DNA of 61,695 bases from a virus (IMGVR_UViG_3300016722_000158:1-61695), one strand, 5' to 3'. Counted from the stretch's first letter, positions 2,919 through 59,186 are shown. Program-made: numbers and translations. The notes: a model not told the origin generated them from the sequence alone.

Positions 2919-3557
2919 TTATTTCAGTCTTAATTGTCCAACAACAAGTGCAAATAGCCTGATATTCGTTTTGGCTATTTCAAAATCGGGATACTCTTCA
3001 TAGTTGTAAGAGTGGCAACGAACTTTTTCACCGGCATCATAAATCTTTTTTATTACAACGCCTTGATCGGTATCAAGTACATGTATTTGTCCCCATTGTA
3101 TGAATTGTTTCTCATTGATTCTAAGGCAAGCTACTTCATCTCCCGAATGAAATTCAGGTTCCATACTATTTCCTTTTATCGTAATTGTAAAATCGTATTT
3201 TGGAAAGGCCGATATTATCGGAACTTGTTCGCATTGATATTCAACAACTCCACCAATAGATTCTGTAAGTGTTCCTGCTGCTGCATCGTATGGAATGCGT
3301 GGGCGAGTCTCTGTTTTTGCTACTGAGCTCGATTTCATCATTTCTCCTTCTCCAGTAATGAGCCACTTGCTTGATATATTGTCAAACGACAGTATTATCC
3401 TGTTGATTAAATCTATGTCTACATTACTTCTCCTACCTGAAAGATATCCATTCAGTGTAGCATAATTGAAGTCAATAACATTTGCAAATGCTCTTGGACT
3501 AATATTTTTAGATTGTATAATACATCTAACTCTTTCTATAACAGTATTTTTAACCAT
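2919..3557 (-). CDS. cI: CI-like repressor, HTH plus S24 autopeptidase
   Basis: N-terminal HTH; AAAG cleavage site; GNSMEP catalytic Ser; VIKK Lys. Start placed at MVKNTVIE because the longer ORF runs into the operator region. Confidence 0.88.
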   Translation of the reverse strand: MVKNTVIERVRCIIQSKNISPRAFANVIDFNYATLNGYLSGRRSNVDIDLINRIILSFDNISSKWLITGEGEMMKSSSVAKTETRPRIPYDAAAGTLTESIGGVVEYQCEQVPIISAFPKYDFTITIKGNSMEPEFHSGDEVACLRINEKQFIQWGQIHVLDTDQGVVIKKIYDAGEKVRCHSYNYEEYPDFEIAKTNIRLFALVVGQLRLK

Positions 3558-28717: not shown

Positions 28718-29390
28718 TTATCTTTATCATATATGCTATGACTTGCTCCATAATCTCTCCTTGGAAGTCACGTCCTTGTGAACTTTGTCTATCTATTTCA
28801 TCCGCAATATCGTTTAACGTTTTTCCTTTAAAGGGTTCATAGCAAGATTTAAAAGTTAAATCTCCGTATTCTCTTATTTTTTGAACTAACAATGATGTGG
28901 TTTGTACTTTTTTATCTTTTAATAAAGCTTTGAGAGCATTTGCATAATCATTTCTGTCAACAAAATCGTTGATGTTGTATTTTATTAATTTTTTTATTTC
29001 TGATATTAAATCTCTCTCATTTTTTTGGGGATAATCACCTAATATTCTTCTGATAACCTTATCTAGTGTACCAGAATATAAAATGATAGGGACATTAGGT
29101 CTTACCCTACGAATTTCCTCAACAACAGTTATACCATCAATATTATCATCAGATAAACCAAAATCTGTAGCAATGGCATCAATAGCTTTGTTTTTACAAG
29201 CTTCTTCTATTTTTGATCTTAATTTATCTATATCTATGTCTTCGTTGTCGTTTAAAACTTCAGGGGAGCTCGTTCTAATATGTATGACATGGACATCAAA
29301 TCCTTCTTTTCTTAAAGGTCTTTTCACATTAGATTCAAATTCATATTGTTGATCTACATCATCTATAATGATACAATTTTTTTCCGTCAT
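28701..29390 (-). CDS. Response-regulator receiver domain protein
   Basis: IIIDD acidic pair, ATDFGL phospho-Asp, DG, IILYSG. Confidence 0.85.
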   Translation of the reverse strand: MTEKNCIIIDDVDQQYEFESNVKRPLRKEGFDVHVIHIRTSSPEVLNDNEDIDIDKLRSKIEEACKNKAIDAIATDFGLSDDNIDGITVVEEIRRVRPNVPIILYSGTLDKVIRRILGDYPQKNERDLISEIKKLIKYNINDFVDRNDYANALKALLKDKKVQTTSLLVQKIREYGDLTFKSCYEPFKGKTLNDIADEIDRQSSQGRDFQGEIMEQVIAYMIKINESDE

Positions 29391-31951
29391 TTGAATGTTA
29401 ATCTAAAAGTTGCACCATGTTTATAGAATAATCCATTTCCAAGAAATGAAATATCACCGTTTAAAATCTCTTTCATCTTATATCGTATAGTGCTTAACCC
29501 TATTCCTGATCCTCCTCTTCTATTTGTGATTCCTTCTTCAAAGATATCTTCGGTAGAAAATTTTTGTAAGTCAAGTCCAATACCATCGTCGGAAAAATCG
29601 ATAATGATTTGATTCTCATTCTTACTAAATTCGACATGTATTTTTTTTGAATTAGCCTTAAAAGAATTACTAACTAAATTATCCAAAATAACAGAGATGT
29701 CAAGTAGTGATGTTTTCTTTATTAAAGGGCCAGGGGCGTTCGATTTGAAAGAAATATCTTCTATTGTATTTGCATCCCTATAGTTTGTCAAATATTCTTG
29801 TACGTATTCAGATATATCAACTTTCGTATATTCTCCCAAAATATTAATATCAGCTTTTGTAAGAAGCTCACTTAATTTATTAATTCTTTGAACATGAAAG
29901 AGCATATAATCTAAATCTTTTTGAAAAGCAGTTGATTTAGGGAAATCCTTTAGCTCACTATTTATGTTTCTTACAGAGGTAGAAAGTGAGTTAGAAGATA
30001 TTTTAATCGTGTGTATTAGACCTTCAACCTCTGGAGTAATATGACGAGTTGAAATAAGGTATCTATTTTTTGATTTCTCAATATCTCGTTCACTCTCAGC
30101 GCGTTTTTTTTCTTCTTCCGCTTTTTCCCTTTTTTTCTCTTCCTCTAATCGTTTTTGTTCTGCTTCTTTTCTTTTGACTTCTTCTTCACGTCTTCCTAAT
30201 TCTGCTTCTTTAGCACGTATTTGTGCTAGCTTTTTTTGTTCTTCCTCCTCTTGTCTTCTATGCTCTGCCTCAATTCTGGACAATTCTGCAAGTCTGGCTT
30301 TTTCTTCCGCTTCAATTCTTTTAGTCTCTTCTTCTTTAGCTCTCTGTTCGGCTAATTCCTTATCTCTTTGAAGTTCTAAAATACGACGTTTGGCTTCATC
30401 TATATTAAAGAGCAAGTTACTGTCATTTAAATCTGCTGCTATTTTTTCTAAGTCAGAAATAAACTGTGGCTTGATGTTCTCTGAAGTTTCTGGGTCAGAT
30501 AATATATTGGCTAAATCTTCGTTATAATATAATATTTCAACATTTGAATCTCTGGTTAAGGTCTTAATGAGTTGAACAAAATCAATTTTACTGCCAATAC
30601 TAGAATTAAATATATATTCAGGAGTTTCATTTTCACTTTCTGCTTCCAATAATTTTTTACGCTCTTGTTCTGCAATATTTTGGTGACGAAAATATTCTTT
30701 CCGAAGAAATGCCTCTCCCCATAAAACACCACTTACATACCTTTCCAATCTACGGTGAGCTACAGTGAAAAATTTCATTAATTGTCTAGAAACATTTGTT
30801 TCTATAAATCCTCCATCTCTGCTGGAAACCTCTTTTAGGTCGTCTACGTTATCGGTAACTATGTCGACGCGCCCAAATAGATCTCGTGTCCCTATGTTAC
30901 GGCGAGTTCCTTGTTGTGATCTATAGTCTAATTTCCAGCTGTCATCTCCGGGAGCTCCAAATGGCATAATACGGAATCCATTTCTAAATAAAAATATAGA
31001 GCCATAATTGACAGGTTGAATACCCATCAATTTCGTAAAATTCATCTTAGCAGATCTATTAAGATAGTATAAGCTAATCTTGACGTCTTTCAATTCCGGA
31101 AAATTGATATTTTCTTCACGTATCTTATAAATATCAACTCCTCTATCTATAATTTTGGATTGAATGTTATTACCTGATAGTTCAACTTCTATTTGAGTCG
31201 TTTTGATCTCTAGAATTTTTGCAATGCTATTTTTCAGTATTCCATTAACAATATCACGATCATATCCCCCCTCTGAAATTATTTTTTTGTCCTTTTCTGA
31301 TTCACGTTCGCAAATAATTTCAATACCAAAGTCATTCGTTTCAGATAAAGGGTTAATTAATTTCTCCAAAGATCGTTTTAATTCTAAAATCTTTGTTCTA
31401 TCCCAATAATCTCCTAATGAGCCTATTTCTAATATGGTTCCTGTAATTTTATTTTTAGGGAAAGAAATATATTCTTTCGCCTTTGTATAATCAACATTAA
31501 TCTGTTCAAACTCAGTGTGCTGATCTTTTTCAAATTGACTCCAATCAACGTAGATCTGTTCTACGAACTCAGAGTCCGCTGATTTAGTCGAAAGCAATAA
31601 ATGCTTACCTAGACGATCACATGAAAAACGGCCTATTCCCTTTGCACCTGCATAATGCCGTTTTATATTATCCCTATATGATTGATGCTTCATATAGTCA
31701 TCTTCACTACCATCTTTTTTTGCCGAAAAGCCAAGAAATAGCCATTTGTCACGAACATCTTCAAAGGTCATCCCTTTACCATTATCTGCAATAATAATCT
31801 TATCGTCTTCAAATTTAATTTCAACTTTATTAGCATAAGCATCATAAGCATTTTTCACTAATTCAAATATAGCGATATAATCATTAGTAATTAAATCCTT
31901 TCCAATAAGATCTTTTAAGGCTGAACTAATTTTAAATCTCATGTGTTCCAT
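29387..31951 (-). CDS. MORC/GHKL ATPase fused to a histidine kinase (854 aa)
   Basis: N-terminal ELVKNAYDA, DNGKGM, GAKGIGRFS; long coiled coil; GLIHTIK His; second ATP-binding domain NLVSNS, DDGIG, IFEEGIT, GSGIGL. Confidence 0.88.
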   Translation of the reverse strand: MEHMRFKISSALKDLIGKDLITNDYIAIFELVKNAYDAYANKVEIKFEDDKIIIADNGKGMTFEDVRDKWLFLGFSAKKDGSEDDYMKHQSYRDNIKRHYAGAKGIGRFSCDRLGKHLLLSTKSADSEFVEQIYVDWSQFEKDQHTEFEQINVDYTKAKEYISFPKNKITGTILEIGSLGDYWDRTKILELKRSLEKLINPLSETNDFGIEIICERESEKDKKIISEGGYDRDIVNGILKNSIAKILEIKTTQIEVELSGNNIQSKIIDRGVDIYKIREENINFPELKDVKISLYYLNRSAKMNFTKLMGIQPVNYGSIFLFRNGFRIMPFGAPGDDSWKLDYRSQQGTRRNIGTRDLFGRVDIVTDNVDDLKEVSSRDGGFIETNVSRQLMKFFTVAHRRLERYVSGVLWGEAFLRKEYFRHQNIAEQERKKLLEAESENETPEYIFNSSIGSKIDFVQLIKTLTRDSNVEILYYNEDLANILSDPETSENIKPQFISDLEKIAADLNDSNLLFNIDEAKRRILELQRDKELAEQRAKEEETKRIEAEEKARLAELSRIEAEHRRQEEEEQKKLAQIRAKEAELGRREEEVKRKEAEQKRLEEEKKREKAEEEKKRAESERDIEKSKNRYLISTRHITPEVEGLIHTIKISSNSLSTSVRNINSELKDFPKSTAFQKDLDYMLFHVQRINKLSELLTKADINILGEYTKVDISEYVQEYLTNYRDANTIEDISFKSNAPGPLIKKTSLLDISVILDNLVSNSFKANSKKIHVEFSKNENQIIIDFSDDGIGLDLQKFSTEDIFEEGITNRRGGSGIGLSTIRYKMKEILNGDISFLGNGLFYKHGATFRLTFK

Positions 31952-48506: not shown

Positions 48507-51500
48507 TTACTTTTCAAGCTGTTCGACCATAGCCTTCTTGAGTCCATAAATTTGTTTTTGAAGTTGGTCTGATTCATTGCCATCCGGAATGGATTTGGCT
48601 TTTTGCTGAATAGTCTCTATTATCTTTTTATACATTCCGATGATCTGCATGTCCTTTTCGTTTTCGAGATTGGCTTTTTTATTAAAATAATGCTCTACCG
48701 CACCTTTCTCACTTGACATTATACTTTTTGTATATTCTCTGTCTTGGCTTTGGTTTTCTTCGTACTCGTCCAAATATCTATAATACCTTTCGTTGATATT
48801 GGAATTGCCTTTACTATTATCAAATTTATATAATAGAGCACTGACGGCCGGTATGTCTCTAACATCAACATCTTTGCCGGGAGTGACTAAGTTATATCCC
48901 GATTTGGCAACACCATAAATTTGTTTTAATACTCCACCACCGTAATTGTTGAATAGGTATTCCATTACAGCAGGGTTCGTCAGTTCAGAATCTAAAGCAC
49001 CTTTCTTTGCCATATCCCCTCCAGAGAGATCATTAATACCCTTTGAAATAGCTATTGCCAAGTCGGAAGTACTTCTATATCCTTTTTTATATTCAGGAAC
49101 ATATTCGTTGAATTCATTTCTTTTTGATATTGGTCGGCCTGTATAATCTTTATTTGTCCAATAGACATCTATAAGAGGTTTTACCGCACTAGGGGCTAGT
49201 GTATTAGCAAGTATTTGTTCGAAAGTATCTCCCTTACTATTGCTCCCTTCCATAAAGTTATATGGAGCAGCTTCCATAAATTTGGTTGCTATATCTGTAG
49301 CGGCATTCTTGCCATGATATTTACCCAATATCATCTGAGCAAGTATATCACCCATCGCAAAGAATGGTCTTATTTCAAGTGCGAGAGGTAAATTTAGTAC
49401 CAAATCTCCTCCAGCGCTAATAACGAAATTATTTTGTCTTATCCAATCGGGTAGTTGATAATATTTATCATCACCATATATTGATTGGAGAATACCTTTC
49501 ATTGCACCTATTAGAGTCCATGTTCCAAATGCTATGGTAGATTTGACAGGGTGGTATTTGAATCCTCTGTTAGTGTTATTAAATGCTTGCACTCCTGCAT
49601 TTAAGAACATTTCCCATGCCCTAATAAAGGAATTCCCATTTCGTCCACTTCCCATTTTATTAAAGTTTACGGATATTTCCTTTGCTGCATATATAGACTT
49701 CATGATACTTTTGCCACCTTCTCGAGATGCGATATATGCAGATAACCGGGTAGTATCCTCAGCACCTCTGTTAAGGACTTCCATTGCATTACCAATCCAT
49801 CGGAAAAGATGTAATTTAGTGGGATGTTTTACTTTGTCTATTTCGTTTTGAATTTCTTTGAAGTAATCTTTATATGACATGGAATTGGTGTATCCCGTCT
49901 CTCCACCATTTTTCAGAAATTCTTCCAAATATTTTCCATATTTCCCCTCAGGTATTTTCTTGGTGGCTAAATATTCGGCAAGAACTTTAGACGCTTTCGG
50001 AGCTGCTTCAAAGAACTCTTTCATACTTGAGTATCCATATATGTAGTTATATGTGATAGCTCCGGTATAGTCTCTGAAGAAGTTTTTAATCACGAAATTT
50101 ATCATTTTTGATGTGAAATTTCGGGCCATCCAATTCGTCGCATTTTTAAGTTTCTGGAATGCCTGCATGCCTTCATCTATGTTATCTCCGTTGATGGATT
50201 GTGCTACTCTAGGTGAAGAATCCATACTGATAATGTAGTCTTTTCCATTTATCGTAAGTCTTACTTGGTGCTGTTTAGCTTGCCATGCTTTAATAGGGAC
50301 GCCGATAGATAATTTTTCATTCTTTTGTACTACGATGTTTTGCTTCGCTAATGATTTCATTCGGTTATTCCACTCTTCAAAAGCGGTATCGTAATTTTCT
50401 CCATCAAGAGGGTTTCCTTTGCTGTCAACCCCTTCAAAGGCTACCTCTTCATACGTTAGTGTGTTCGGATTCCATGCGACCCACACAGGAGATACATGAG
50501 CAAGATTTGTAGGATAATTGAATACCAATCTATACAGATGTTGTTTTACCCTATTTTTATTTCCTATCACGATAGCGCTATCAGCCATTGAACCGATGTT
50601 GGCTATCGGGTCACCTGCTTTAGTTTTACGTCCTTTGGCTTTTTGAATAGGTATATTAAGATCATGGCGATCCTTATAAAAATAAGTGAAGAAGTCTTCT
50701 GCTTGTGGGTCTGCCCAATCTCTTAGTGGAACATAATAGTTATACATGGCCTTGATTTGTTCCATGCGCTCTTTGCTTATGCATCCATATAGCCTTTGGG
50801 TCTCGAGGCAAAAGTTAGTGGCTTCATGTATATTGTCCCACATACCAGATATATCATCCTTGTTGTGGCTTTTCTCAAATTCGTCTACAAAATTTTGGAT
50901 GTATGGCTCATTTAGTTTAATATCTTTTAAGTCGGAATCATCCCCCTGCAATTCTTTTTGGAGTTGTGTTAATCCGGCAAAATCTTCATTGGCAAAATCT
51001 TCAGTGATTTTTGTTGCAATCTTTTTGATTTTGCTTTCAAGAGATTCTCTCTGGGCATTCGCTTCCTCTTCACTGATACTGTGTCTTGAAAGAAGGTAGT
51101 CTATTTGGGATATCTGTTCTTTTAATGGTGCTATAGCTTCTTCGATTTTTTGTTTACGCATGTAAACGTTCCTTTCAAGGCCGTGCTTAGCTATTAGATA
51201 ATTGATGACATCATCATATTCACCAACTTTATTGACTGCTGAAAGCATCCTATCAAAAACAATCGATTTGAAAGTGTCCTTTTCGTATCTGGCTCTTGAG
51301 GTCATTACAATAGATGACAGGTGTGCGTCACACTCATCCGGAATTTCCATTTTGTACTTCTTTGCTACTGTCTCTTGGAATACTCTTACAGGATTCATTT
51401 TGTCTACCCAAGATTCAAACAATACCTGGTGTTCCATCCGTTTTATAAAGTCGTTCTGTTCTTCTTCATTGAGCATGGCAACTTCTTTTGTTATTCCGAT

Positions 51501-54500
51501 TATGTCATTGAAATCTTTCTCCGAGAGTTTTTGCGGATCCAATCGGAAGAGGGGAGTAGCTTTTCTGTTATCTACGAAATCGTCTTTGTAGATATTATCT
51601 TTCACTTTGAATTCTTTACTGTAATTATCTGGAGTATCTTCCAAATGTCTGCGACTCTTCCAAAGCAAATACTTGATATCATTGTCTGACATCTTAATCT
51701 TTATACCGGCTTTTCTGAGAAGTTCTCTAACCTTTGATATGATTGTTTTCCAAATAGTCGGTTTATCGATTCCGCTTTCTGCTAGGCGGGCACAATATTC
51801 TTCTGCGGCTTCTGTCGTATCCCAACTTTTACTATTTAGGAATATATCACTAATTTCTTTTCTTTCTGATTCAGGTAGTGAACGGAATATGTCGTTCATG
51901 GTATCATCAAAACTGTCACCTAACAATTTACGGAGTCCTTTATGCGCAACGACTTCGTGAAGGATAGTTTGTTTAACATCTTCTTCGTCGATGTTGTTTT
52001 TAGGATTTATATAAACTTCATCAGTTCGTGTATCATACCAGCCTTTGGAATTTCTTTTTTTGATCGAGTATTCGTCACTTCCTTTTATATCCTCGGAATT
52101 TGTAAAATGTACTTCGGTGTTAAGAGTCTTTGCAAGCTCCTCTGCCGCAGACATGATCTTTCCGTCTTGCAATGTTGGGTTCTTGAAATCTTTGATTATA
52201 TTTGCAGTCGTAGGGCTATTACTTGGTATGGCATCTTCCCGAAAGCGAATGTCACTTTTTCCTTGGTTGAAACGCTTGGACGGAAGTATGATGTTTCCTT
52301 TATCGTCACGGGTGATTAAGTCATTCAGCTTGCGGTTGTTTTTCGTATTCTTGTATCTGTAAGAACTGCCGTCATCAACTCCCCATTCATTAACATCGTT
52401 CCCGTCCCAATAGAGTTCATTAGCTGGAACATCCTGCTCTATCAGTCTATATTTTCCCTCTAGCCGGTTATTACCGTGCATCTCCGCATATTTCTTACTA
52501 GGAGTTACCCAATCGCCATTTCTTACTTTGCTTTCCTTTATATCAGTCGGGACGGCTCGATATACTTTTACCATCGGTTTTTCTCCACGTTTCACAGCCT
52601 CCATCGCTTCATTTATCGCATGTGCGGATTCAACGCTGTGTTCTTCGCTTCTGCTATATGCTCTGTCATTGGAAAAATAGTCGTCAGCTTGCGGAGAATA
52701 GCCGGCCGCAATATCTTCAATATTCACATCCGTGTTATCGCCTTTATCGATATAAGAGCGACGTTCCTCTGTCGTATCGAAGCCATTGCTTGGAGCTACC
52801 CATGTTCCTTCGCCCTGATAATCGCTTTCCACGTCTGAATACCCTTTACGCATTGCCGCTTCATTTATACACCTGCGCATAACTTCTTCATCTTTTGATT
52901 TGACGGCATCCATATATGTCTTATCCAAATCATCGGCACTCATACGTGTATAGGGCTTCTGTTTTTCCTCTTCTTCTAGTTGCGCTTTCTCTATTTCTGC
53001 TTTTTTCTCCTGCTCTGCCCTGCGTGAAGCTTCCATTTGCCCGATGGCTATTCTATGGCGCTCTTCCTGTTCTGCTATATGTCTTTCTATCTCAGGGAAT
53101 CGGGAATATAAGTATTCCCGCATTTCAGCCACCTTTTTGCGTCTCTCAACAAGCCCGATATTCAACGATGCATCATACCTTCTCAATATAAGATCAAGTC
53201 TCTTCTTTGCTCTGGCATAGTCGTGAAACTTATCTACATCATCTTTTGCATAATCAACAAGGAAATCCAAATCATTATTTTTTAGCCATTTATCTTTATC
53301 ATTGTTTTCCTGTTTGTTTTCTCTAATCAACTCTACCAGCGGCATCGCGGTACTATCCGTCGTTTCTATATCGGAAACATCGACGCCTCTTTTTTTAAGA
53401 GCACGTAAAGCGGCCTTTGTGCTTTCCAAATTAGGATTTCCCTTAGCTGCCTTTACAAGTATTTCTATTTGACTGGGTTGTCTGAGCTCTCCTTTCGCAA
53501 GTTTATCCCGGTATTCTTTTCTTAACTCTTCACGCTTTTTAGTGTACTCCACGTCTTTCTTGTGTTGGAGTTCAACAACCTTGTTTTGTTGGGCTTCTGA
53601 TTTTTGCTTCCCTTTATGTAATGCAGAATCGCCTATTCCCGAAAAGTCGTATCCCTCTGATGCAAGATATTCTTCTTCGGTCATTGCGGGAATATCTTTC
53701 GATTCGGTCAAAGGAGATAAATCGTGTTGTTTTTCAACATCAGTTTTAACCGTAGAATATTCTGCAAATGGTTTTGTCTTTCTTTTTGAACTGTCTATCC
53801 ACTTTTTAAATTCTTCTTTAGAAACAGGAGTTATGTTTCCAAGTCCTTTCCAACCCTTTCCATAATTGGCCAGATAAGCTTCTTTAGCTTCCTCTGTAGA
53901 ATTGAAGCCATACATTACCTTGTGCTCGTCAAAAGAGCCGTCCGGTTTGATCTGATCAACGACATAGACTTTGCCTTCTTCCGGATGATCTGAAAGGAAC
54001 ATATCTATGTGGTCCCCGTCAACACCTTTGGTACCTCGAATATAGCCGTACGTATTATGTATTTCAGTTTCCCACTTGTTACCATTTGCATCGGTTCCGC
54101 TACGCACAGAGCCTTTAGGATTTTCTATGGTTATATCAAACCCGTCAATCTTTACATGGCCTTTCTTATAGTTACCGGCTTCCTTTTGTGCGTCTGTAGG
54201 ATTGGTGACTACTTTATTTTCTTCATCATGTAATTCTTTTGCTGCAGCAATACGATTCGCATAATTCAGAATCGATTCGTCACGTTTCTTTTCAGGGGAT
54301 ACAAAAGATGAATCGGCTTCTTTTATTTCATCGTCAATGACGTAAATATTTCCACTTTCAGATTTAAGAACATTTCTAGGGCGTAAATCGGATATGATGA
54401 TTTTCCCATTGGAATACATGGCCTCTCCTGTTTCTTTGAATCCAAGAGACTTCATATATGATTTTATTTCTTGTGGAGATGCAGGAACTGCGTTTAGTAT

Positions 54501-57500
54501 TAATCTCTGTTTTAATACGGGGAAAACACTTCTTTTATCAAATCCGGTGAATCCGACAAAATCGTATTTTGTATTGGGGAATATTTTATTATGAAGCGAT
54601 GTCTTGTTTAGCATGGAAACAATACTATCGCTATTCGTTAGGTTGTTGACTTTGTATATGTCGTTGCCCGAAATATAAGTATCGTTTTCATTGCCACTTG
54701 GTCCCGGCACTCCGAGATCAAAAATTTCATTCATAGGAATCCACAAACCATTTTCTTTTGCGAAATCCTCTGTGGTACGTCTCTCTATTTCTTTTCTTTC
54801 TTCGACGGATAAAGTCTTTCCGCTTCTGCTAAGTTCCGCTTCATATATTCGGCAGCGTCTTTCGAGTTCACCTGTTGTTTGCTCCAACCCTCCATTTCTT
54901 TCAGGCACCTCTCCGTGCTCTCCTTGTGAAATTTGTTGAAGTACGGGTTCTCTTTCGTCAGTTCGTTGTTGTATTTCTCTGCCATCGTTTTTATTATTTT
55001 GATTCAAAGATACTTCTTTATTCTTATCTAAAGAAGGCTTTTCAAATATATCTTTTTGTTTCTCTAACTCCTTATTGGCTAGCTCTGGTTCTCCCGATAT
55101 TTTGCTATCAGGTAAGCTGTTAGCATCGTATTTGTCAGGTTCTGCATTCCCTCCCTGCCGTGGTCTTTCGCTATTTCTATATCTTTCGCCGTGACTATTT
55201 TCTTCTCCATACAATATCGGCCCGCTTCTGCTATTATCTCCTTGTACGGTTTCGACTTCAGGTAGTTGTCTATGAATGTTTTCTCTTCTGCTGTCATTGT
55301 CTTCTTTATTATATTGTTCTGCTAATGTACTTAAAAAATCACTATAATCGTTATCGGTCATAGTATTATTTTCTTCTTCTATTTTTTGAGGTATGTATTC
55401 ATTGTATAAATCATATTCTTCTGGAGTCATATGATAGGAAGAAGCTATCTTTTGATGAATATCTTCAAGATATTGCCTATACTCCGGATCATCTTCTTCT
55501 GTTTGGCCATGAAGCTTTTTTGCCTCTTCCCACATACTTCTTCTGCTACCTCCGTAAGTATGGAATACATCAAGTATCTCATTGAAGATATCTTGGTCTG
55601 TCGCTGACGGAAACATTTCTCCTAGATCACCTCTCATCTTTTCGGCAACCACTTCTGGAGGAAGCCCCCCATTGTCCGGGGCGGAAAGAAAACCAATCAT
55701 GCCCCTACGTTCACTTTCATCTCCCTTTAATCCTAGATGACTTGCAAGACCTTTCGTTTTATTATTCTCATTATCTTTCCATTGGAATTTATACCCTCCT
55801 GTAGCTATTTCACGAACAACAGCTTCTCTCAGTGAATTCGGAGCGCCCATGTCGTCATTCTCTTTGGAATAGAATCCGCGACTGCGTTTGGGCTTATCAG
55901 TTAGTGTCTTCTCCTTATAGTCTTGGCTATTCACATCGGCTGTTGCTGTCTGCTCCTCGACAGACTGTGGCACGGCAGTTTGATCTGTAGGTGTTTGTTC
56001 AAGAAGGCCACTGATACCGTTCCAATAATCATAAAGATTCTGTAACCTAGTAAGTTCTTCTTTCTTTTGTTTTTTAGCATTTTGAATCTCTATCACTGAT
56101 TTCCCGATAGGGGGTTTCTTTTCCAACTTTTTTATTTCAGATTCATAATTGCTAGACATTTGCTTGGCTGTATCAATTGCCTCAGTGTTGTCGCCGTCAT
56201 TCATCTCAAGCAATGCGCCTGCCGTATTCTCCGGTTCTGCCTGTTCGAAGAGAGGATTGCCCTCATTATCTTTTGGTATTCTGTTGAGATAACTTTGTGT
56301 ATTTTCTTGGGGTTGCGTTTGTATATCTTCTTGTTCATTGCTTACACTTTGTTGGTCCTTGTCTATGGGTACAAGGGCATTTATTGGTGATTCTTCTGGC
56401 GAATTTTCAATGGACTGTTTGTTTTCGACATCTTGCTTTGCTTGTGCTGCAAGTTCATTCGCGTCTGTTTCGCTCACAAGCTTGGAAACAGTATCTTCTG
56501 TGGGTTTTACTTTTATATCTCCATTTTTGTATCTGCAATAAATTTCAGGATCTGATTTTGATAAATCGACTTTCCCGTTTTCGTCAAATTCCAAATGTCC
56601 GTCTATAATGTTGATGATATCACCTCCAAAAGTTTGAACCCGGAGTATCTTGCCTTCTTTGTTTGGATAGGAGAGCATTTGTTCTGTCGCATTATCGCCA
56701 GTTTTATTATCCTCTTCATGTTGCTGAATATCATTATCTGTAGGTTCCTTTATATCTTCATCCTGCTTGTTGGAATCAAAAATAGAGTCCATATTATCAT
56801 CTTTAGACTCTTCCTCAGTCCTAAATCCTTTTTGAAGTTTGTCAGCATACATTGATATGGCCTTTTCTTCATCTTCGGTTCTTTCAGCTTTATTCTTCTT
56901 CAGTGCATTGTCGACATCAATACCCGTCATATCTTTCACGTCCTGTGCTTTTGCCGCAGATGTTCTCTTTATGAATTCAGGATCAGACTCAACAGTCCAT
57001 TTTATTTCATCAAGAATCTTATCACCATTCTCTGGAAGTTCTTTACCCTCGGCTTTATCTGCTATTATTTTAGAGATAGTATCGCTGGAGATACCGTATT
57101 TGGTTGCGACATTCCGAATCGCTTGTCTTTTATAAACCCCTTCAACGGCACGGTCGTTTAGTTGCTCAGAGAAAGCTACACTGTTTCTTATCGAATTATT
57201 AAGGAGATTGTTTTTCTGAATATATGTGTTTGCATCTTTGTTATTTTTGAATGCCTTTTTGTCAATGGTCCTACCGGCCCAATCATTAGTAGTAAGTATT
57301 GTTTCTCCTTTTTCGTCTGTGCTCGTTTTGTATCCGGTAATTGCTGGTTGCATGGCGAGTTTACCTTCAACGAGATATAACAACTTTGATTTCGTAGAAA
57401 GAGAAATACCTGGATTCTGCATAATCTTCACATACTCTTTACCGAACAGTTCTTTATCTCTATTGGTATCTTCCACTAAAGATACATTTCTCTGTCCCTC

Positions 57501-59186
57501 AACTGTTGTAGCCTTTTGCTTCTTGTTAGCAGACAATTGGGCTATAGTTGATACCAGATGATTCGCATCATAACCTGCGTTCTTCAGCTCACCTTTTTGT
57601 TCAGGTGTAAAAGCCAACGTTGATTTGAGTATTTCTTTATCCTTCGGGTCTGCAGATTTTAAATTGATATTGCCTACATGTGGGAGCTTCATGGCTCCGA
57701 ACATTGCAATATTGGTAAGATAGTCTTCGCCTATATCGACCGGCTCTCCTTGCGCATATTTTTCCAGAGTAGAGACTCCGGTACCTACTGCTGCGGATGA
57801 AGCCAAGCCACCTATTTCTGTGCCGACACGCTTTAAACCTGTCATGTCCCTGGAAACGCCGGCAAAAGCTCCGTCAGTAACTCCGAAAGCTCCTCCCATA
57901 AGGATACCGCTTAAACCTGATTTAGCTGTTTGTTTTAGGCTGTATTTATCTTGTGAGCCGTTGTTTATTTGTATGGCTTGGTTAATAGCATCATCGGCAG
58001 TATTATACATTCCTAGTGTTGATGCACTTTCGGCCGCATTCATGCCGATTCTTTGCGCTATCATCTTCGGTGTGTTTTGGGAAACGATTCTGCCGGCTTG
58101 TTCAAGAGTAGCTTTGGAAATAACGTTCTCTCCAGCCTTTTCTGCCAATTGTCGTGCCACATGTTTAGTGAGTGCTTTTGTTCCAAGTTTAAGAGCTTTT
58201 GAAGAGATTCCTCCAAGCCCTCCGAATATCGGTGCGTCAAGAGCCATTGCTCCGGCTCCTGCGGCTCCTTTTTCTACCCATGAAGGATTATATAATTCAT
58301 TGCCTCTCTGTTCTACTTCTTGCTGTGTCGAACTCTTTCCTAATACGGCATTACCGATTGTCCCGACAAGAGAACCATCGATCATGTTTTTGAGAATGTA
58401 TTCGACAGAGCTTTTCGGCATATCCTTTTTAGCGAGATAGTCAATCGTACGCTGCATTATTCTATCTGTGTGCGGGTCAACGCCGTTGCTTCCTTTTCCG
58501 TTACCGGTCTTCTGTCCGATGTAATTACGCACATCATTGAGCACATTCTGAGCATCAATCTCACTCATGTACCTTTGCCCCTTTGCGGCCATTGCTCCGG
58601 CATACTGATTGGCACTTAATAAGCCATCGTTACTACGCATCTCTTTTAGAGCGGCATTATTATGCTGTGAGATGAAACTATCGATCTTGGGAGCGATGGA
58701 TGTATTAAATTCTTTGTCAGAGTCACTGATTATATCCTTCAGAGGTTTTTGTGGTTGTATTGGAGTAGGGACGGCAGGAACATTTCCTTTACCGAGGTTG
58801 ACGGTTGCGGGCTGAGAGTTAAATTCTTTGTCGACAGTCTTTTGAATTTGCTGTATAGGCTTTTGTAGTTGTGCTTGTTCTTCTCTGGCTTTATTTTCCA
58901 TCGTTTGGCCAATAGGCTGTACGGAGTTCAATGGAGTGTTTTGAATAGGTGCCGGTGTCGAGTAAGAGATTGTAAATGGTCGATAGCCCTGCTTAATTGC
59001 TGTTTCAACCTCTCCGGCTGGAACTAACCCGCTTTGCCCGTGCTTATCAACCATTCTCATTTGATCTTTCGGATACAGTCTCGCATAATCGTTTGCTCTT
59101 CCTTCGTATTCCGATTGGTCTACCGTATGACTTTTGCCTTGGTCATCAAAAAATTGATATTTAATCTTGTTATCGTTTGCTTCCAT
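48507..59186 (-). CDS. Giant polyvalent (probably virion-ejected) protein, 3559 aa: kinase-like, inorganic pyrophosphatase-like, ART-like, zincin and LPD38-like domains
   Basis: Kinase SGNEN..YK..HNKIFP..DLRPRNV..VID (~54320-54790); InPase AQKEAGNYKKGH..DGDHID..DEHKVM (~53770-54210); YRAVP..GDWVT..EWG (~52370-52580); LHEVVAH (~51950); LPD38-like C-terminus. Confidence 0.85.
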   Translation of the reverse strand: MEANDNKIKYQFFDDQGKSHTVDQSEYEGRANDYARLYPKDQMRMVDKHGQSGLVPAGEVETAIKQGYRPFTISYSTPAPIQNTPLNSVQPIGQTMENKAREEQAQLQKPIQQIQKTVDKEFNSQPATVNLGKGNVPAVPTPIQPQKPLKDIISDSDKEFNTSIAPKIDSFISQHNNAALKEMRSNDGLLSANQYAGAMAAKGQRYMSEIDAQNVLNDVRNYIGQKTGNGKGSNGVDPHTDRIMQRTIDYLAKKDMPKSSVEYILKNMIDGSLVGTIGNAVLGKSSTQQEVEQRGNELYNPSWVEKGAAGAGAMALDAPIFGGLGGISSKALKLGTKALTKHVARQLAEKAGENVISKATLEQAGRIVSQNTPKMIAQRIGMNAAESASTLGMYNTADDAINQAIQINNGSQDKYSLKQTAKSGLSGILMGGAFGVTDGAFAGVSRDMTGLKRVGTEIGGLASSAAVGTGVSTLEKYAQGEPVDIGEDYLTNIAMFGAMKLPHVGNINLKSADPKDKEILKSTLAFTPEQKGELKNAGYDANHLVSTIAQLSANKKQKATTVEGQRNVSLVEDTNRDKELFGKEYVKIMQNPGISLSTKSKLLYLVEGKLAMQPAITGYKTSTDEKGETILTTNDWAGRTIDKKAFKNNKDANTYIQKNNLLNNSIRNSVAFSEQLNDRAVEGVYKRQAIRNVATKYGISSDTISKIIADKAEGKELPENGDKILDEIKWTVESDPEFIKRTSAAKAQDVKDMTGIDVDNALKKNKAERTEDEEKAISMYADKLQKGFRTEEESKDDNMDSIFDSNKQDEDIKEPTDNDIQQHEEDNKTGDNATEQMLSYPNKEGKILRVQTFGGDIINIIDGHLEFDENGKVDLSKSDPEIYCRYKNGDIKVKPTEDTVSKLVSETDANELAAQAKQDVENKQSIENSPEESPINALVPIDKDQQSVSNEQEDIQTQPQENTQSYLNRIPKDNEGNPLFEQAEPENTAGALLEMNDGDNTEAIDTAKQMSSNYESEIKKLEKKPPIGKSVIEIQNAKKQKKEELTRLQNLYDYWNGISGLLEQTPTDQTAVPQSVEEQTATADVNSQDYKEKTLTDKPKRSRGFYSKENDDMGAPNSLREAVVREIATGGYKFQWKDNENNKTKGLASHLGLKGDESERRGMIGFLSAPDNGGLPPEVVAEKMRGDLGEMFPSATDQDIFNEILDVFHTYGGSRRSMWEEAKKLHGQTEEDDPEYRQYLEDIHQKIASSYHMTPEEYDLYNEYIPQKIEEENNTMTDNDYSDFLSTLAEQYNKEDNDSRRENIHRQLPEVETVQGDNSRSGPILYGEENSHGERYRNSERPRQGGNAEPDKYDANSLPDSKISGEPELANKELEKQKDIFEKPSLDKNKEVSLNQNNKNDGREIQQRTDEREPVLQQISQGEHGEVPERNGGLEQTTGELERRCRIYEAELSRSGKTLSVEERKEIERRTTEDFAKENGLWIPMNEIFDLGVPGPSGNENDTYISGNDIYKVNNLTNSDSIVSMLNKTSLHNKIFPNTKYDFVGFTGFDKRSVFPVLKQRLILNAVPASPQEIKSYMKSLGFKETGEAMYSNGKIIISDLRPRNVLKSESGNIYVIDDEIKEADSSFVSPEKKRDESILNYANRIAAAKELHDEENKVVTNPTDAQKEAGNYKKGHVKIDGFDITIENPKGSVRSGTDANGNKWETEIHNTYGYIRGTKGVDGDHIDMFLSDHPEEGKVYVVDQIKPDGSFDEHKVMYGFNSTEEAKEAYLANYGKGWKGLGNITPVSKEEFKKWIDSSKRKTKPFAEYSTVKTDVEKQHDLSPLTESKDIPAMTEEEYLASEGYDFSGIGDSALHKGKQKSEAQQNKVVELQHKKDVEYTKKREELRKEYRDKLAKGELRQPSQIEILVKAAKGNPNLESTKAALRALKKRGVDVSDIETTDSTAMPLVELIRENKQENNDKDKWLKNNDLDFLVDYAKDDVDKFHDYARAKKRLDLILRRYDASLNIGLVERRKKVAEMREYLYSRFPEIERHIAEQEERHRIAIGQMEASRRAEQEKKAEIEKAQLEEEEKQKPYTRMSADDLDKTYMDAVKSKDEEVMRRCINEAAMRKGYSDVESDYQGEGTWVAPSNGFDTTEERRSYIDKGDNTDVNIEDIAAGYSPQADDYFSNDRAYSRSEEHSVESAHAINEAMEAVKRGEKPMVKVYRAVPTDIKESKVRNGDWVTPSKKYAEMHGNNRLEGKYRLIEQDVPANELYWDGNDVNEWGVDDGSSYRYKNTKNNRKLNDLITRDDKGNIILPSKRFNQGKSDIRFREDAIPSNSPTTANIIKDFKNPTLQDGKIMSAAEELAKTLNTEVHFTNSEDIKGSDEYSIKKRNSKGWYDTRTDEVYINPKNNIDEEDVKQTILHEVVAHKGLRKLLGDSFDDTMNDIFRSLPESERKEISDIFLNSKSWDTTEAAEEYCARLAESGIDKPTIWKTIISKVRELLRKAGIKIKMSDNDIKYLLWKSRRHLEDTPDNYSKEFKVKDNIYKDDFVDNRKATPLFRLDPQKLSEKDFNDIIGITKEVAMLNEEEQNDFIKRMEHQVLFESWVDKMNPVRVFQETVAKKYKMEIPDECDAHLSSIVMTSRARYEKDTFKSIVFDRMLSAVNKVGEYDDVINYLIAKHGLERNVYMRKQKIEEAIAPLKEQISQIDYLLSRHSISEEEANAQRESLESKIKKIATKITEDFANEDFAGLTQLQKELQGDDSDLKDIKLNEPYIQNFVDEFEKSHNKDDISGMWDNIHEATNFCLETQRLYGCISKERMEQIKAMYNYYVPLRDWADPQAEDFFTYFYKDRHDLNIPIQKAKGRKTKAGDPIANIGSMADSAIVIGNKNRVKQHLYRLVFNYPTNLAHVSPVWVAWNPNTLTYEEVAFEGVDSKGNPLDGENYDTAFEEWNNRMKSLAKQNIVVQKNEKLSIGVPIKAWQAKQHQVRLTINGKDYIISMDSSPRVAQSINGDNIDEGMQAFQKLKNATNWMARNFTSKMINFVIKNFFRDYTGAITYNYIYGYSSMKEFFEAAPKASKVLAEYLATKKIPEGKYGKYLEEFLKNGGETGYTNSMSYKDYFKEIQNEIDKVKHPTKLHLFRWIGNAMEVLNRGAEDTTRLSAYIASREGGKSIMKSIYAAKEISVNFNKMGSGRNGNSFIRAWEMFLNAGVQAFNNTNRGFKYHPVKSTIAFGTWTLIGAMKGILQSIYGDDKYYQLPDWIRQNNFVISAGGDLVLNLPLALEIRPFFAMGDILAQMILGKYHGKNAATDIATKFMEAAPYNFMEGSNSKGDTFEQILANTLAPSAVKPLIDVYWTNKDYTGRPISKRNEFNEYVPEYKKGYRSTSDLAIAISKGINDLSGGDMAKKGALDSELTNPAVMEYLFNNYGGGVLKQIYGVAKSGYNLVTPGKDVDVRDIPAVSALLYKFDNSKGNSNINERYYRYLDEYEENQSQDREYTKSIMSSEKGAVEHYFNKKANLENEKDMQIIGMYKKIIETIQQKAKSIPDGNESDQLQKQIYGLKKAMVEQLEK
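54785..54985 (-). CDS. Nested +1-frame ORF (66 aa) inside the giant gene
   Basis: TATCTTTG (55005-55012) and A-rich leader AATCAAAATAATAAAAACG before the ATG; protein-like helical composition. Confidence 0.55.
   Translation of the reverse strand: MAEKYNNELTKENPYFNKFHKESTERCLKEMEGWSKQQVNSKDAAEYMKRNLAEAERLYPSKKEKK
55079..55297 (-). CDS. Nested +1-frame ORF (72 aa) inside the giant gene
   Basis: TACATTAG (55322-55329) and A-rich leader CAATATAATAAAGAAGACA before the ATG; protein-like helical composition. Confidence 0.5.
   Translation of the reverse strand: MTAEEKTFIDNYLKSKPYKEIIAEAGRYCMEKKIVTAKDIEIAKDHGREGMQNLTNTMLTAYLIAKYRENQS

What the first reader, a model, noticed from the sequence alone, without database searches (positions are those of the whole stretch)
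54320..55012. Overprinted gene directly upstream of the kinase domain inside the giant virion gene: candidate embedded antitoxin
Seen: a 66-aa same-strand +1-frame ORF (54985-54785) has its own TATCTTTG -7 element and A-rich leader, and ends exactly where the kinase-like domain starts. Over this interval the giant protein reads as hydrophilic linker (NDGREIQQRTDEREPVL...), while the nested frame reads as an ordinary helical protein. No canonically spaced -33 element was found. Inference: a promoter-antitoxin-kinase module was captured, the kinase fused in frame to the ejected protein, and the nested gene protects the lysogen or producer cell.
Basis: partly seen in the sequence, partly recalled or inferred. 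Interest (0 to 1): 0.82.

Follow-up and report, generated by a model that had tools for sequence, protein, structure and literature searches.

The report
Conserved small gene inside giant gene
A 66-codon gene hidden in a second reading frame of a giant phage protein gene is real: relatives in gut and rumen Bacteroidota keep it just ahead of the same kinase domain, and annotation has missed it.

Summary
The nested +1 ORF (54985..54785, minus strand, 66 aa) exists. Its length alone is chance-level: 77-93% of shuffles give an ORF this long. Comparative data show it is a real gene.

In 86 homologous loci the most variable codon position follows the +1 frame, then switches to frame 0 where the ORF ends. 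pN/pS is 0.35 in +1 and 0.95 in frame 0; in the kinase domain it is 1.18 and 0.31. Frame 0 is also kept open: 82 of 82 loci against 0.6 expected. T-ending wobbles that would create frame-0 stops are avoided, 5 of 1150 against 727 of 2008.

A Bacteroidetes -7 element (TAnnTTTG) lies 10-45 nt upstream in 96 of 102 loci where the kinase gene starts there, and in 6 of 12 internal loci, the window's clade among them.

The product is a helical hairpin of an unnamed family, M-x-Y-L-N-Q-F-H-K-E.

So the captured promoter, small-gene and kinase module is supported. The antitoxin role is untested. Only a genetic asymmetry favours it: this kinase subfamily was never found without the small gene, while the small gene is found without the kinase.

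A second nested +1 ORF (55297..55079) shows the same substitution signature.

The parts
48507..59186 (-). Giant polyvalent protein gene (3559 aa), frame 0. It carries Kinase-PolyVal, InPase and LPD38 domains, and a portal gene follows it.
   Evidence: The record is a provirus, 97% complete by CheckV.
54785..54985 (-). Embedded small gene in the +1 frame, 66 aa including a clade-specific 14-aa N-terminal extension; the stop codon is included in these coordinates.
   Evidence: for the ORF. Selection in the +1 frame. Only 3-4 substitutions in 201 nt against close relatives, compared with 39-41 in 464 nt of the kinase.
54812..54943 (-). Conserved core of the small protein (residues 15-58): Y-F-N-K-F-H-K-E-S-T-E-R ... 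A-A-E-Y-M-K-R-N-L. Predicted helix-loop-helix (H18-36, H41-58).
   Evidence: Alignment A2, with H20 invariant and N17, F19, E25, R26, K36 and M48 at 90% or more. AlphaFold2 mean pLDDT 80.5, and 82-93 over residues 21-60. 32 small homologues among 1.84 billion representatives.
55005..55012 (-). TATCTTTG, a Bacteroidetes -7 promoter element inside the giant ORF. It lies 19 nt upstream of the small gene's ATG and is followed by an A-rich leader.
   Evidence: The same element ends 10-45 nt upstream of the small ATG in 96 of 102 kinase-first lineages and 6 of 12 internal lineages; 11 of 12 internal lineages if TAnnTTCG is allowed. There is no canonical -33 in the window.
54785..54986 (-). Frame-0 bridge of the giant protein (residues 1401-1467) that overlies the small gene. 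It is kept open, with weak amino-acid constraint except around residues 1432-1445.
   Evidence: Frame 0 is open in 82 of 82 loci against 0.6 expected. T avoidance: 5 of 1150 against 727 of 2008. pN/pS in frame 0 is 0.95 overall, 1.36 / 0.65 / 1.08 by sub-region. AlphaFold2: residues 2-31 of the modelled piece have pLDDT below 50, then a helix at 32-53.
54321..54791 (-). Kinase-PolyVal domain (giant residues 1466-1622), frame 0.
   Evidence: Pfam PF18762, E 1.2e-29. Invariant K47, D135, N140 and D153 of alignment A3. pN/pS 0.31 in frame 0.
55079..55297 (-). Second nested +1-frame ORF (72 aa, P0156), found only in the window's clade. A candidate second embedded gene.
   Evidence: Substitutions against two relatives fall on frame-0 codon positions 1/2/3 as 13/4/4 and 11/5/1, compared with 10/4/27 in the kinase. 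In the 150-nt sliding scan of the giant gene against L200, one bin (55350-55201), overlapping this ORF, is the only one flagged for position-1 excess. 90% aa identity in L013 and L002. No homologues found.

Best explanation
Shown by comparison:
- The stretch 54785-54985 is dual-coding. The +1 frame encodes a small helical-hairpin protein. It is 66 aa here and 46-51 aa in most relatives. It belongs to an unnamed family that always sits at the 5' edge of one subfamily of Kinase-PolyVal domains in Bacteroidota phages and prophages.
- Frame 0 is translated through the same bases. In the window it bridges the N-terminal 1400 residues of the polyvalent protein to the kinase. In most relatives it is the first ~50 residues of a protein that starts with the kinase.
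- In those relatives the two start codons lie 7 nt apart, behind one canonical -33/-7 Bacteroidetes promoter.

Inferred:
- The ancestral unit was promoter, small gene, then kinase gene. The kinase ORF extended upstream over the small gene.
- That made the unit fusable in frame into giant polyvalent proteins, carrying its promoter and small gene inside the ORF.
- In the window the small protein is made from an internal transcript starting after TATCTTTG, or by internal initiation on the giant mRNA at an A-rich, Shine-Dalgarno-free start.

Most likely function (inference, about 40%): it binds and holds in check the kinase, an effector meant for a newly infected cell. This would protect the producing or lysogenic cell, or confer immunity to kinases injected by related phages.

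My odds: real translated dual-coding gene about 0.93; functionally tied to the kinase about 0.6; inhibitor or immunity role about 0.4.
For: Selection in the +1 frame:
- Site entropy over 86 loci peaks at frame-0 position 1, the +1 wobble, for codons 1410-1458. It switches to position 3 at about 1455-1465, where the ORF ends.
- pN/pS in the overlap is 0.35 in +1, 0.95 in frame 0 and 1.11 in +2. In the kinase the values are 1.18, 0.31 and 1.61 (600 random pairs).
- The signal holds separately for 10 internal loci (0.51 against 0.96) and 74 kinase-first loci (0.25 against 1.00).

Both frames are kept open:
- The small ORF is intact in 82 of 82 distinct loci of the subfamily, against 27.4 expected from synonymous resampling.
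- Frame 0 is open in 82 of 82 against 0.6 expected.
- T-ending codons are avoided before AA/AG/GA codons: 5 of 1150 against 727 of 2008.

Start region and promoter:
- The codon before the +1 ATG varies D/H/Y/N in frame 0 (xAT GAC), which preserves the ATG.
- A frame-0 ATG lies exactly 7 nt upstream in 96 of 102 kinase-first lineages and 0 of 12 internal ones.
- TAnnTTTG is present in 96 of 102 and 6 of 12 lineages. A -33 TTTG at 19-20 nt is present in 44 of 96.

The window's own clade has 1.5-2.0% substitutions in the overlap against 8.4-8.8% in the kinase.

The family exists as called proteins: 32 small proteins of 46-108 aa. AlphaFold2 predicts a hairpin with pLDDT 80.5.

Link to the kinase:
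- 196 of 199 loci examined carry the small-protein HMM hit.
- A stand-alone 201-aa kinase is still preceded and overlapped by the small gene and a promoter (L107).
- Asymmetry: kinase-based searches gave 82 of 84 distinct loci with an intact small ORF. The 2 without, L010 and L012, are the most divergent kinases at 39% and 36% identity.
- Small-protein-based searches gave 70 distinct loci. 44 are canonical, 3 have the kinase frame interrupted, 4 hold kinase fragments in another frame, 16 have no kinase despite at least 500 nt of room, and 3 lack room.
Against: Expression:
- There is no expression evidence of any kind. The RNA-run search could not be reached.
- The window's promoter has only the -7 element, with no -33.
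- 5 of 12 internal lineages carry TAnnTTCG instead of TAnnTTTG.

The window's version:
- The window's start codon is not the family's usual one. The first 14 residues are clade-specific and modelled with low confidence, pLDDT 54.
- The window-length interval of 66 codons is stop-free in only 8 of 82 loci, because most homologues are shorter.

Against the inhibitor or antitoxin reading:
- The small ORF survives intact where the kinase is gone. One example is giant proteins in which PBECR1 and ART-PolyVal follow it directly (L094 type). Another is a bacterial chromosome beside housekeeping genes (L111).
- No DNA-binding or known antitoxin domain was detected.
- Toxicity of Kinase-PolyVal is not documented in what I read of PMC5512222.
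- In kinase-first loci both products share one promoter and start region, so they are not separately regulated.
- Physical overlap makes co-inheritance with the kinase trivial.
- Sequences are phylogenetically related, so the k-of-n counts are not independent events.
Confidence: 0.5

Rival explanations
1. Real embedded gene, but its function is independent of the kinase. Examples would be an early-expressed anti-defence or regulatory peptide that rides on a convenient junction cassette of polyvalent proteins. Its place next to the kinase would be historical.
For: The small ORF is intact without any kinase in 16 of 70 distinct loci found with the small protein. These include a widespread human-gut phage lineage in which PBECR1 and ART-PolyVal follow it and chromosomal orphans. 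It has its own promoter element inside a late structural gene.
Against: In every kinase-bearing locus of the subfamily it sits at the same place, and it diverges in step with the kinase: L008 and L009 have the most divergent kinases that still carry a small ORF (46% and 42% identity), and their small proteins look the most divergent by eye. No locus was found where it is attached to a different domain without a trace of the kinase's N-terminal flank; L094 keeps 'IEARAAEEY'. Kinase-less copies can be read as decay products or orphan immunity genes.
Confidence: 0.27
2. Real embedded gene whose product is a positive partner of the kinase: an activator, a substrate adaptor, or a trans-supplied substitute for the missing C-lobe.
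For: PMC5512222 (passages read) says this kinase clade has lost the whole C-terminal subdomain while keeping the catalytic residues. The gene linkage is tight. Some database proteins show the small ORF continuing in frame into kinase N-terminal sequence (P0132, P0149).
Against: The in-frame forms may be sequencing or assembly indels, and their DNA could not be inspected. An activator would not be expected to persist after kinase loss. The small protein would not be co-packaged unless it binds the giant protein.
Confidence: 0.13
3. The +1 stretch is not a separate gene. It is read as part of the kinase protein by programmed frameshifting, for example a -1 slip near the end of the small ORF.
For: The frames differ by one base and the ORF ends at the kinase boundary. 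The window has an A-rich run (AAG AAA GAA AAG AAA TAG) before the stop.
Against: Frame 0 is kept open over the whole small ORF in 82 of 82 loci. It has its own conserved ATG 7 nt upstream in 96 of 102 kinase-first lineages. Neither would be needed if frameshifting were the route. The end of the small ORF is not conserved in position or sequence...AKxM*...MEAASK*...RLYPSKKEKK*. No shared slippery site is present; I judged this by eye and ran no formal scan.
Confidence: 0.04
4. Chance ORF: the +1 frame is open only because the frame-0 sequence is hydrophilic and purine-rich.
For: ORFs this long arise in 77-93% of shuffles of the giant gene, and the interval is stop-free in 14.7% of synonymous shuffles. 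The -7 motif is common in the window, 94 matches.
Against: All comparative tests contradict it: codon-position entropy, pN/pS by frame, ATG conservation through D/H/Y/N variation, and 82 of 82 ORFs intact against 27.4 expected.
Confidence: 0.03

Closest known systems
comS inside srfAB of Bacillus subtilis (recalled from memory, not from a call)
   Same: A small protein of about 46 aa is encoded out of frame, on the same strand, inside a giant multidomain gene. The giant ORF reads through it.
   Different: ComS regulates competence and has nothing to do with the enzyme domains around it. As far as I recall it has no dedicated internal promoter. Here the small gene travels with one particular domain and with a promoter element, across more than 100 lineages and in two arrangements.
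Rz1 embedded in the +1 frame of Rz in phage lambda, and the overlapping genes of phiX174 (recalled; the review PMC8227390 was seen only in a search listing)
   Same: A phage gene lies wholly inside another gene in the +1 frame, both are functional, and for Rz/Rz1 they act in the same process.
   Different: Those overlaps lie in small genes of compact genomes. Here the host gene is a 10.7-kb polyvalent effector gene. Here the embedded frame carries the stronger amino-acid constraint, and the host frame is mainly kept open.
Type II toxin-antitoxin pairs with kinase toxins, such as HipBA (recalled)
   Same: A small upstream gene and a kinase sit in one transcription unit. The kinase is never seen without the small gene, while orphan small genes occur.
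   Different: No DNA-binding domain and no similarity to HipB or other antitoxins. The kinase is of the Kinase-PolyVal clade, not HipA. The genes overlap almost completely rather than abutting. Toxicity and binding are untested.
Polyvalent proteins of phages and conjugative elements (Iyer, Burroughs, Aravind 2017, PMC5512222; passages read)
   Same: The host gene is a typical member: Kinase-PolyVal, InPase and LPD38 domains, next to a portal gene, from Bacteroidetes. The paper also notes stand-alone versions of this kinase in Bacteroidetes.
   Different: The text of that paper contains none of the terms 'overlapping', 'frameshift', 'internal promoter' or 'immunity protein'. Its supplementary files could not be seen.

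Membership tests
Overlapping (embedded, same-strand) protein-coding gene | Two ORFs in different frames share the same bases on one strand. | tested here: met
   54785..54985 (+1) lies inside 48507..59186 (frame 0).
Overlapping (embedded, same-strand) protein-coding gene | Purifying selection acts on the embedded frame beyond what the host frame imposes. | tested here: met
   pN/pS is 0.35 in +1 against 0.95 in frame 0, and the pattern is reversed in the kinase. Wobble periodicity follows +1. ORF intact in 82 of 82 loci against 27.4 expected.
Overlapping (embedded, same-strand) protein-coding gene | The host frame is also maintained as coding. | tested here: met
   Frame 0 is open in 82 of 82 loci against 0.6 expected. 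T avoidance: 5 of 1150 against 727 of 2008. The 3559-aa ORF is continuous.
Overlapping (embedded, same-strand) protein-coding gene | Both products are expressed. | not testable with these tools
   The RNA-run search was unreachable. No Ribo-seq or proteomics was available.
Type II toxin-antitoxin / immunity pair | The small gene and the toxin gene are co-transcribed and adjacent. | tested here: met
   One -33/-7 promoter precedes both start codons, which lie 7 nt apart, in kinase-first loci. A stand-alone small gene plus a 201-aa kinase occurs in L107.
Type II toxin-antitoxin / immunity pair | The antitoxin binds and neutralises the toxin. | not testable with these tools
   One structure-prediction job gave no verdict (see Tried and rejected). 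There are no biochemical data.
Type II toxin-antitoxin / immunity pair | The toxin is harmful to the cell that makes it. | not tested
   The catalytic residues are conserved. PMC5512222 proposes host-protein phosphorylation by analogy with the T7 kinase. No toxicity data were found.
Type II toxin-antitoxin / immunity pair | The antitoxin carries a DNA-binding domain for autoregulation, or matches a known antitoxin family. | tested here: not met
   No Pfam, PHROG or NCBIfam match. No Foldseek PDB match. The model is a bare two-helix hairpin.
Bacteroidetes sigma-A promoter (-33 TTTG / -7 TAnnTTTG; consensus recalled from memory) | A -7 TAnnTTTG element lies a short distance upstream of the start. 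| tested here: met
   TATCTTTG at 55005-55012, 19 nt before the ATG. The same placement is found in 96 of 102 and 6 of 12 lineages.
Bacteroidetes sigma-A promoter (-33 TTTG / -7 TAnnTTTG; consensus recalled from memory) | A -33 TTTG lies about 19-21 nt upstream of the -7 element. | tested here: not met
   The window's nearest TTTG ends 30 nt upstream. In kinase-first loci 44 of 96 have it at 19-20 nt.
Polyvalent protein (host gene) | A giant multidomain protein with polyvalent-type domains, encoded by a phage or conjugative element near virion genes. | tested here: met
   PF18762, PF18823 and PF18857; the portal gene is adjacent; the record is a provirus.

The most novel reading that the evidence does not exclude
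Bacteroidota phages carry a mobile dual-coding cassette made of a promoter, two start codons 7 nt apart in different frames, a small hairpin protein and a kinase effector. The cassette can be spliced in frame into giant injected polyvalent proteins while still expressing its small protein from inside the ORF. That protein would be the dedicated immunity factor or inhibitor for the injected kinase. It would protect producer cells and lysogens, and as chromosomal orphans it would give bacteria immunity against kinase-armed phages. The neighbouring 72-aa nested ORF would be a second such hidden gene, implying that 'linkers' of polyvalent proteins are a reservoir of unannotated genes.
Probability: 0.3. 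Interest if true: 0.9.

Novelty: new variant of a known kind. Interest (0 to 1): 0.8.

Why it matters
Missing annotation:
- Embedded genes are almost never annotated.
- This one is absent as an exact sequence from a collection of about 15 billion predicted proteins.
- Its relatives appear only as rare 'hypothetical protein' calls, in clusters of 1-3 members.
- The family is nevertheless widespread.

Clean example of dual coding:
- The embedded frame holds the amino-acid constraint.
- The host frame is kept open by codon choice.

Translation and fusion:
- The conserved two-ATG start, 7 nt apart in two frames, is a testable model for start-site choice in Shine-Dalgarno-independent translation.
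- It also shows how a two-gene unit can be fused into a giant effector protein without losing its partner gene.

If the small protein controls the kinase, it gives a handle on the unknown role of Kinase-PolyVal effectors, and possibly a new immunity mechanism.

Tried and rejected
- Complex prediction of the small protein with the kinase domain (alignments A2 and A3). The verdict was 'no answer': run scores were 0.00, 0.66 and 0.00, and the controls were not run. I do not use it either way.
- Fold search of the small-protein model against the PDB: 0 matches.
- ESM Atlas: no usable hit.
- Pfam, PHROGs and NCBIfam on the small protein: nothing.
- PDB sequence search with the kinase profile: only weak matches to 'Ika8' and 'Ika4' over 37 residues, which I treat as uninformative.
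- GenBank phages: no DNA match to the region and no tblastn match to either nested protein.
- Second nested ORF (P0156): Pfam gave only DUF3848 at E 0.029, below the cutoff. No homologues were found among proteins of near or longer length.
- The RNA-run search was unreachable four times, so no reads were laid.
- My first anchor regexes missed most loci. I replaced them with tblastn and HMM anchoring.
- One search had coordinate bugs and was superseded.
- Literature searches found no description of a gene overlapping Kinase-PolyVal. The term itself occurs in one paper, PMC9758233, which I saw only in the listing.
- Supplements of PMC5512222 could not be seen and might hold relevant alignments.
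- I considered programmed frameshifting and a chance ORF and rejected both (see rivals).

Full report
WHAT IS IN THE WINDOW

The window is a 61.7-kb provirus record, 97% complete by CheckV. On the minus strand it holds a 3559-aa ORF, 48507..59186. Its Pfam domains are Kinase-PolyVal (residues 1466-1622), InPase (1665-1797) and LPD38 (3239-3447). It also matches a DarB-like antirestriction PHROG. A portal gene follows it. It is a polyvalent protein in the sense of Iyer et al. 2017 (PMC5512222; passages read).

Inside it, in the +1 frame of the same strand, lies the ORF 54985..54785: ATG start, 66 aa, kept as P0002. Its stop codon falls in the first two codons of the Pfam kinase match. TATCTTTG sits at 55012-55005, 19 nt before the ATG, followed by an A-rich leader. 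No -33 TTTG lies at the canonical distance.

IS IT MORE THAN CHANCE?

Within the window alone, no.
- In 1000 codon shuffles of the giant gene the longest ATG-started alt-frame ORF averages 79 aa, and 77% of shuffles reach 66 aa.
- In shuffles that keep the protein, 93% reach 66 aa, and the interval itself stays stop-free in 14.7%.
- TAnnTTTG occurs 94 times in the window against 75 +/- 8 expected.

The case rests entirely on homologues.

HOMOLOGUES FETCHED

- A search with giant residues 1330-1640 found 316 proteins, and all 120 listed carry PF18762.
- Most BLASTP alignments start at residue 1406, in 93 of 120. The stretch under the nested ORF is therefore alignable in frame 0.
- I fetched DNA for 11 viral and 80 genome loci using a kinase alignment; the 80 were the best of 160 relatives.
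- Later I fetched 80 metagenome loci and 27 viral loci using a small-protein alignment.

THE +1 FRAME IS UNDER PROTEIN-LEVEL SELECTION

- The +1 translation is strikingly conserved in 82 distinct loci: M-T-[YF]-[LF]-N-Q-F-H-K-E-A-x-E-R-K-x-R-K-I-E-E-S-x-K-S-P-M-N-S-x-D-x-A-x-Y-M-K-R-N.
- Across 86 loci the most variable codon position in frame-0 codons 1410-1458 is position 1, which is the wobble of the +1 frame. Entropy there is about 1.0 against 0.5-0.8 at the other two positions. It flips to position 3 (about 1.5) at codons 1455-1465, where the small ORF ends.
- pN/pS over 600 random pairs in the overlap is 0.945 (frame 0), 0.347 (+1) and 1.105 (+2). In the kinase it is 0.308, 1.18 and 1.61.
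- The result holds for the 10 internal loci alone (+1 0.51, frame 0 0.96) and for the 74 kinase-first loci alone (0.25 and 1.00).
- The frame-0 residue before the conserved D varies D/H/Y/N, that is xAT GAC, which preserves the +1 ATG.
- phmmer of P0002 against 1.84 billion representatives gave 33 hits. Of these, 32 are small called proteins of 46-108 aa with the same motif, and one is a repeat protein.
- None of the cluster members listed for the six hits looked up bears a name beyond 'hypothetical protein'. The window's exact protein is not in the 15-billion collection.

FRAME 0 IS ALSO MAINTAINED

- Given each small protein, synonymous resampling leaves frame 0 open over the interval in 0.7% of trials on average. 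That predicts 0.6 open loci of 82, but 82 of 82 are open.
- The mechanism is visible in codon choice. Among small-ORF codons that have a T-ending synonym, T is used in 727 of 2008 cases in general. It is used in only 5 of 1150 cases when the next codon starts AA, AG or GA, which would create a frame-0 stop.
- The constraint is a mosaic along the overlap:

| Codons | pN/pS in +1 | pN/pS in frame 0 |
|---|---|---|
| 1415-1431 | 0.21 | 1.36 |
| 1432-1445 | 0.54 | 0.65 |
| 1446-1458 | 0.40 | 1.08 |

- AlphaFold2 on the frame-0 piece models residues 1402-1431 as disordered (pLDDT below 50) and 1432-1453 as a confident helix leading into the kinase. 'Linker' is therefore only partly right.
- In the window's own clade the overlap carries 3-4 substitutions in 201 nt, against 39-41 in 464 nt of the kinase and 31-37 in 415 nt upstream. 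This is what double constraint predicts.

TWO ARRANGEMENTS AND A PROMOTER

After 95% dereplication there are 114 lineages: 102 'kinase-first' and 12 'internal'.

Kinase-first lineages:
- Frame 0 starts just upstream of the small ORF.
- A frame-0 ATG lies exactly 7 nt before the small ATG in 96 of 102.
- TAnnTTTG ends 10-45 nt upstream in 96 of 102.
- A TTTG lies 19-20 nt further up in 44 of 96. This is the canonical Bacteroidetes promoter; I recall the consensus from memory.

Internal lineages:
- They never have the -7 frame-0 ATG, 0 of 12.
- 6 of 12 keep TAnnTTTG and 5 more have TAnnTTCG. In frame 0 these read as '...SLQ...' or '...SSQ...'.
- The window's clade keeps a perfect -7 element.

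A stand-alone 201-aa kinase still has the promoter and the overlapping small gene (L107). I add one point: the frame under stronger amino-acid constraint is the small gene's. The kinase ORF therefore probably extended upstream over a pre-existing small gene (inference).

THE PRODUCT

AlphaFold2 with 24 sequences gives a helix-loop-helix (H18-36, H41-58) with pLDDT 82-93 over residues 21-60. The window-specific N-terminal 14 residues are modelled with low confidence. No fold, family or atlas match was found.

FUNCTION

Nothing direct could be obtained.

Points that tie it to the kinase:
- Its position is constant.
- L008 and L009, the most divergent kinases that still carry a small ORF (46% and 42% identity), also carry small proteins that look the most divergent by eye.
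- There is an asymmetry. Kinase-based searches gave 82 of 84 distinct loci with an intact small ORF. The two exceptions, L010 and L012, are the most distant kinases.
- Small-protein-based searches gave 70 distinct loci: 44 canonical, 3 with the kinase frame interrupted, 4 with kinase fragments in another frame, 16 with no kinase despite at least 500 nt of room, and 3 without room.

The kinase-less cases include:
- decayed remnants (L119, L139, L158, L168);
- chromosomal orphans beside housekeeping genes (L111);
- a giant-protein lineage in which PBECR1 and ART-PolyVal follow directly (L094).

'Effector never without the small gene, small gene sometimes alone' is the pattern of antitoxins and immunity genes. 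It is also compatible with a kinase-independent role, and physical overlap makes co-inheritance trivial. I rate an inhibitor or immunity role at about 0.4, an independent function at about 0.27, and an activator or adaptor role at about 0.13. The last is prompted by the clade's missing C-lobe, noted in PMC5512222.

Frameshifting is unlikely. Frame 0 is open throughout and has its own ATG, and the ORF's end is not conserved.

BEYOND THE FINDING

A second +1 ORF lies just upstream, 55297..55079, 72 aa, kept as P0156.
- Its substitutions against two relatives are concentrated on frame-0 position 1: 13/4/4 and 11/5/1, compared with 10/4/27 in the kinase.
- In the 150-nt sliding scan of the gene from 57750 to 48451 (with a gap at about 53700-53400), one bin (55350-55201), overlapping this ORF, is the only one flagged for position-1 excess.
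- It is 90% identical in L013 and L002 and has no detectable homologues.

Residues about 1297-1467 of the giant protein may thus overlie two hidden genes.

COMPARISON WITH KNOWN SYSTEMS AND NOVELTY

The anatomy resembles comS inside srfAB and Rz1 inside Rz; both are recalled from memory. Genetically it resembles a kinase toxin-antitoxin pair, but it fails the DNA-binding and known-family test, and binding and toxicity are untested.

No paper found by my searches describes it. The text of PMC5512222 contains none of the terms 'overlapping', 'frameshift', 'internal promoter' or 'immunity protein'; its supplements could not be seen.

I rate it a new variant of a known kind, with high confidence that the gene is real and moderate-to-low confidence in the proposed role.

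LIMITS

- There are no expression data, because the tool was unreachable.
- The sequences are related, so counts are not independent events.
- Alignments were guided by frame 0.
- pN/pS was computed by a simple Nei-Gojobori count, not by a model built for overlapping genes.

Noticed in passing
window 55079-55297 (-): A second nested +1-frame ORF (72 aa, MTAEEKTFIDNYLKSKPYKEI...) lies immediately upstream of the first. Its substitutions against close relatives fall on the +1 wobble (13/4/4 and 11/5/1), and it is 90% identical in L013 and L002. It has no homologues elsewhere; Pfam gives only a weak DUF3848 match (E 0.029).
   Followed up: partly
L094-L103, L180 (small ORF at 2456-2689 of L094): A human-gut phage lineage keeps the small ORF and a TAnnTTCG element inside a giant ORF, but the kinase is missing. 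Frame 0 runs from '...IEARAAEEY' straight into PBECR1 and ART-PolyVal domains.
   Followed up: partly
L111 2483-2650 (also L110, L112, L172): Orphan copies of the small gene, each with its promoter element, lie in bacterial chromosomal context with no kinase. In L111 the neighbours are an AAA-type ATPase, an asparaginase-like gene and a pyruvate:ferredoxin oxidoreductase-like gene; I named these by eye from the translations. The L111 copy is followed by a 60-aa hydrophobic ORF. In L111 the old kinase frame is still open over it as an 89-aa ORF.
   Followed up: partly
L106 / L107 (small ORF core at nt 350 of L107; kinase ORF 385-990): A stand-alone 201-aa Kinase-PolyVal gene has its ATG inside the small ORF. 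In L107 a frame-0 stop lies upstream of that ATG. This looks like an intermediate, partly overlapping form of the two-gene unit.
   Followed up: partly
L121, L170, L150, L153, L154, L160: These copies have a nonsense codon, a truncation or an internal deletion in the kinase, while the small ORF is intact.
   Followed up: partly
proteins P0132, P0149, P0127, P0138, P0130: In these database proteins the small ORF continues in frame into kinase sequence. They may be natural fusions or deletions, or sequencing indels. Their DNA could not be inspected.
   Followed up: no
window 29387-31951 (-): An 854-aa ORF has HATPase_c-type ATPase domains at both ends: HATPase_c_3 at residues 26-145 and HATPase_c at 752-853. 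It may belong to a defence or anti-defence system of the prophage.
   Followed up: no
L003, L006, L049, L063, L094, L105, L185: The recurrent variant TAT[CT]TTCG replaces TAnnTTTG at the promoter position in several internal lineages. It may be an attenuated internal promoter.
   Followed up: no
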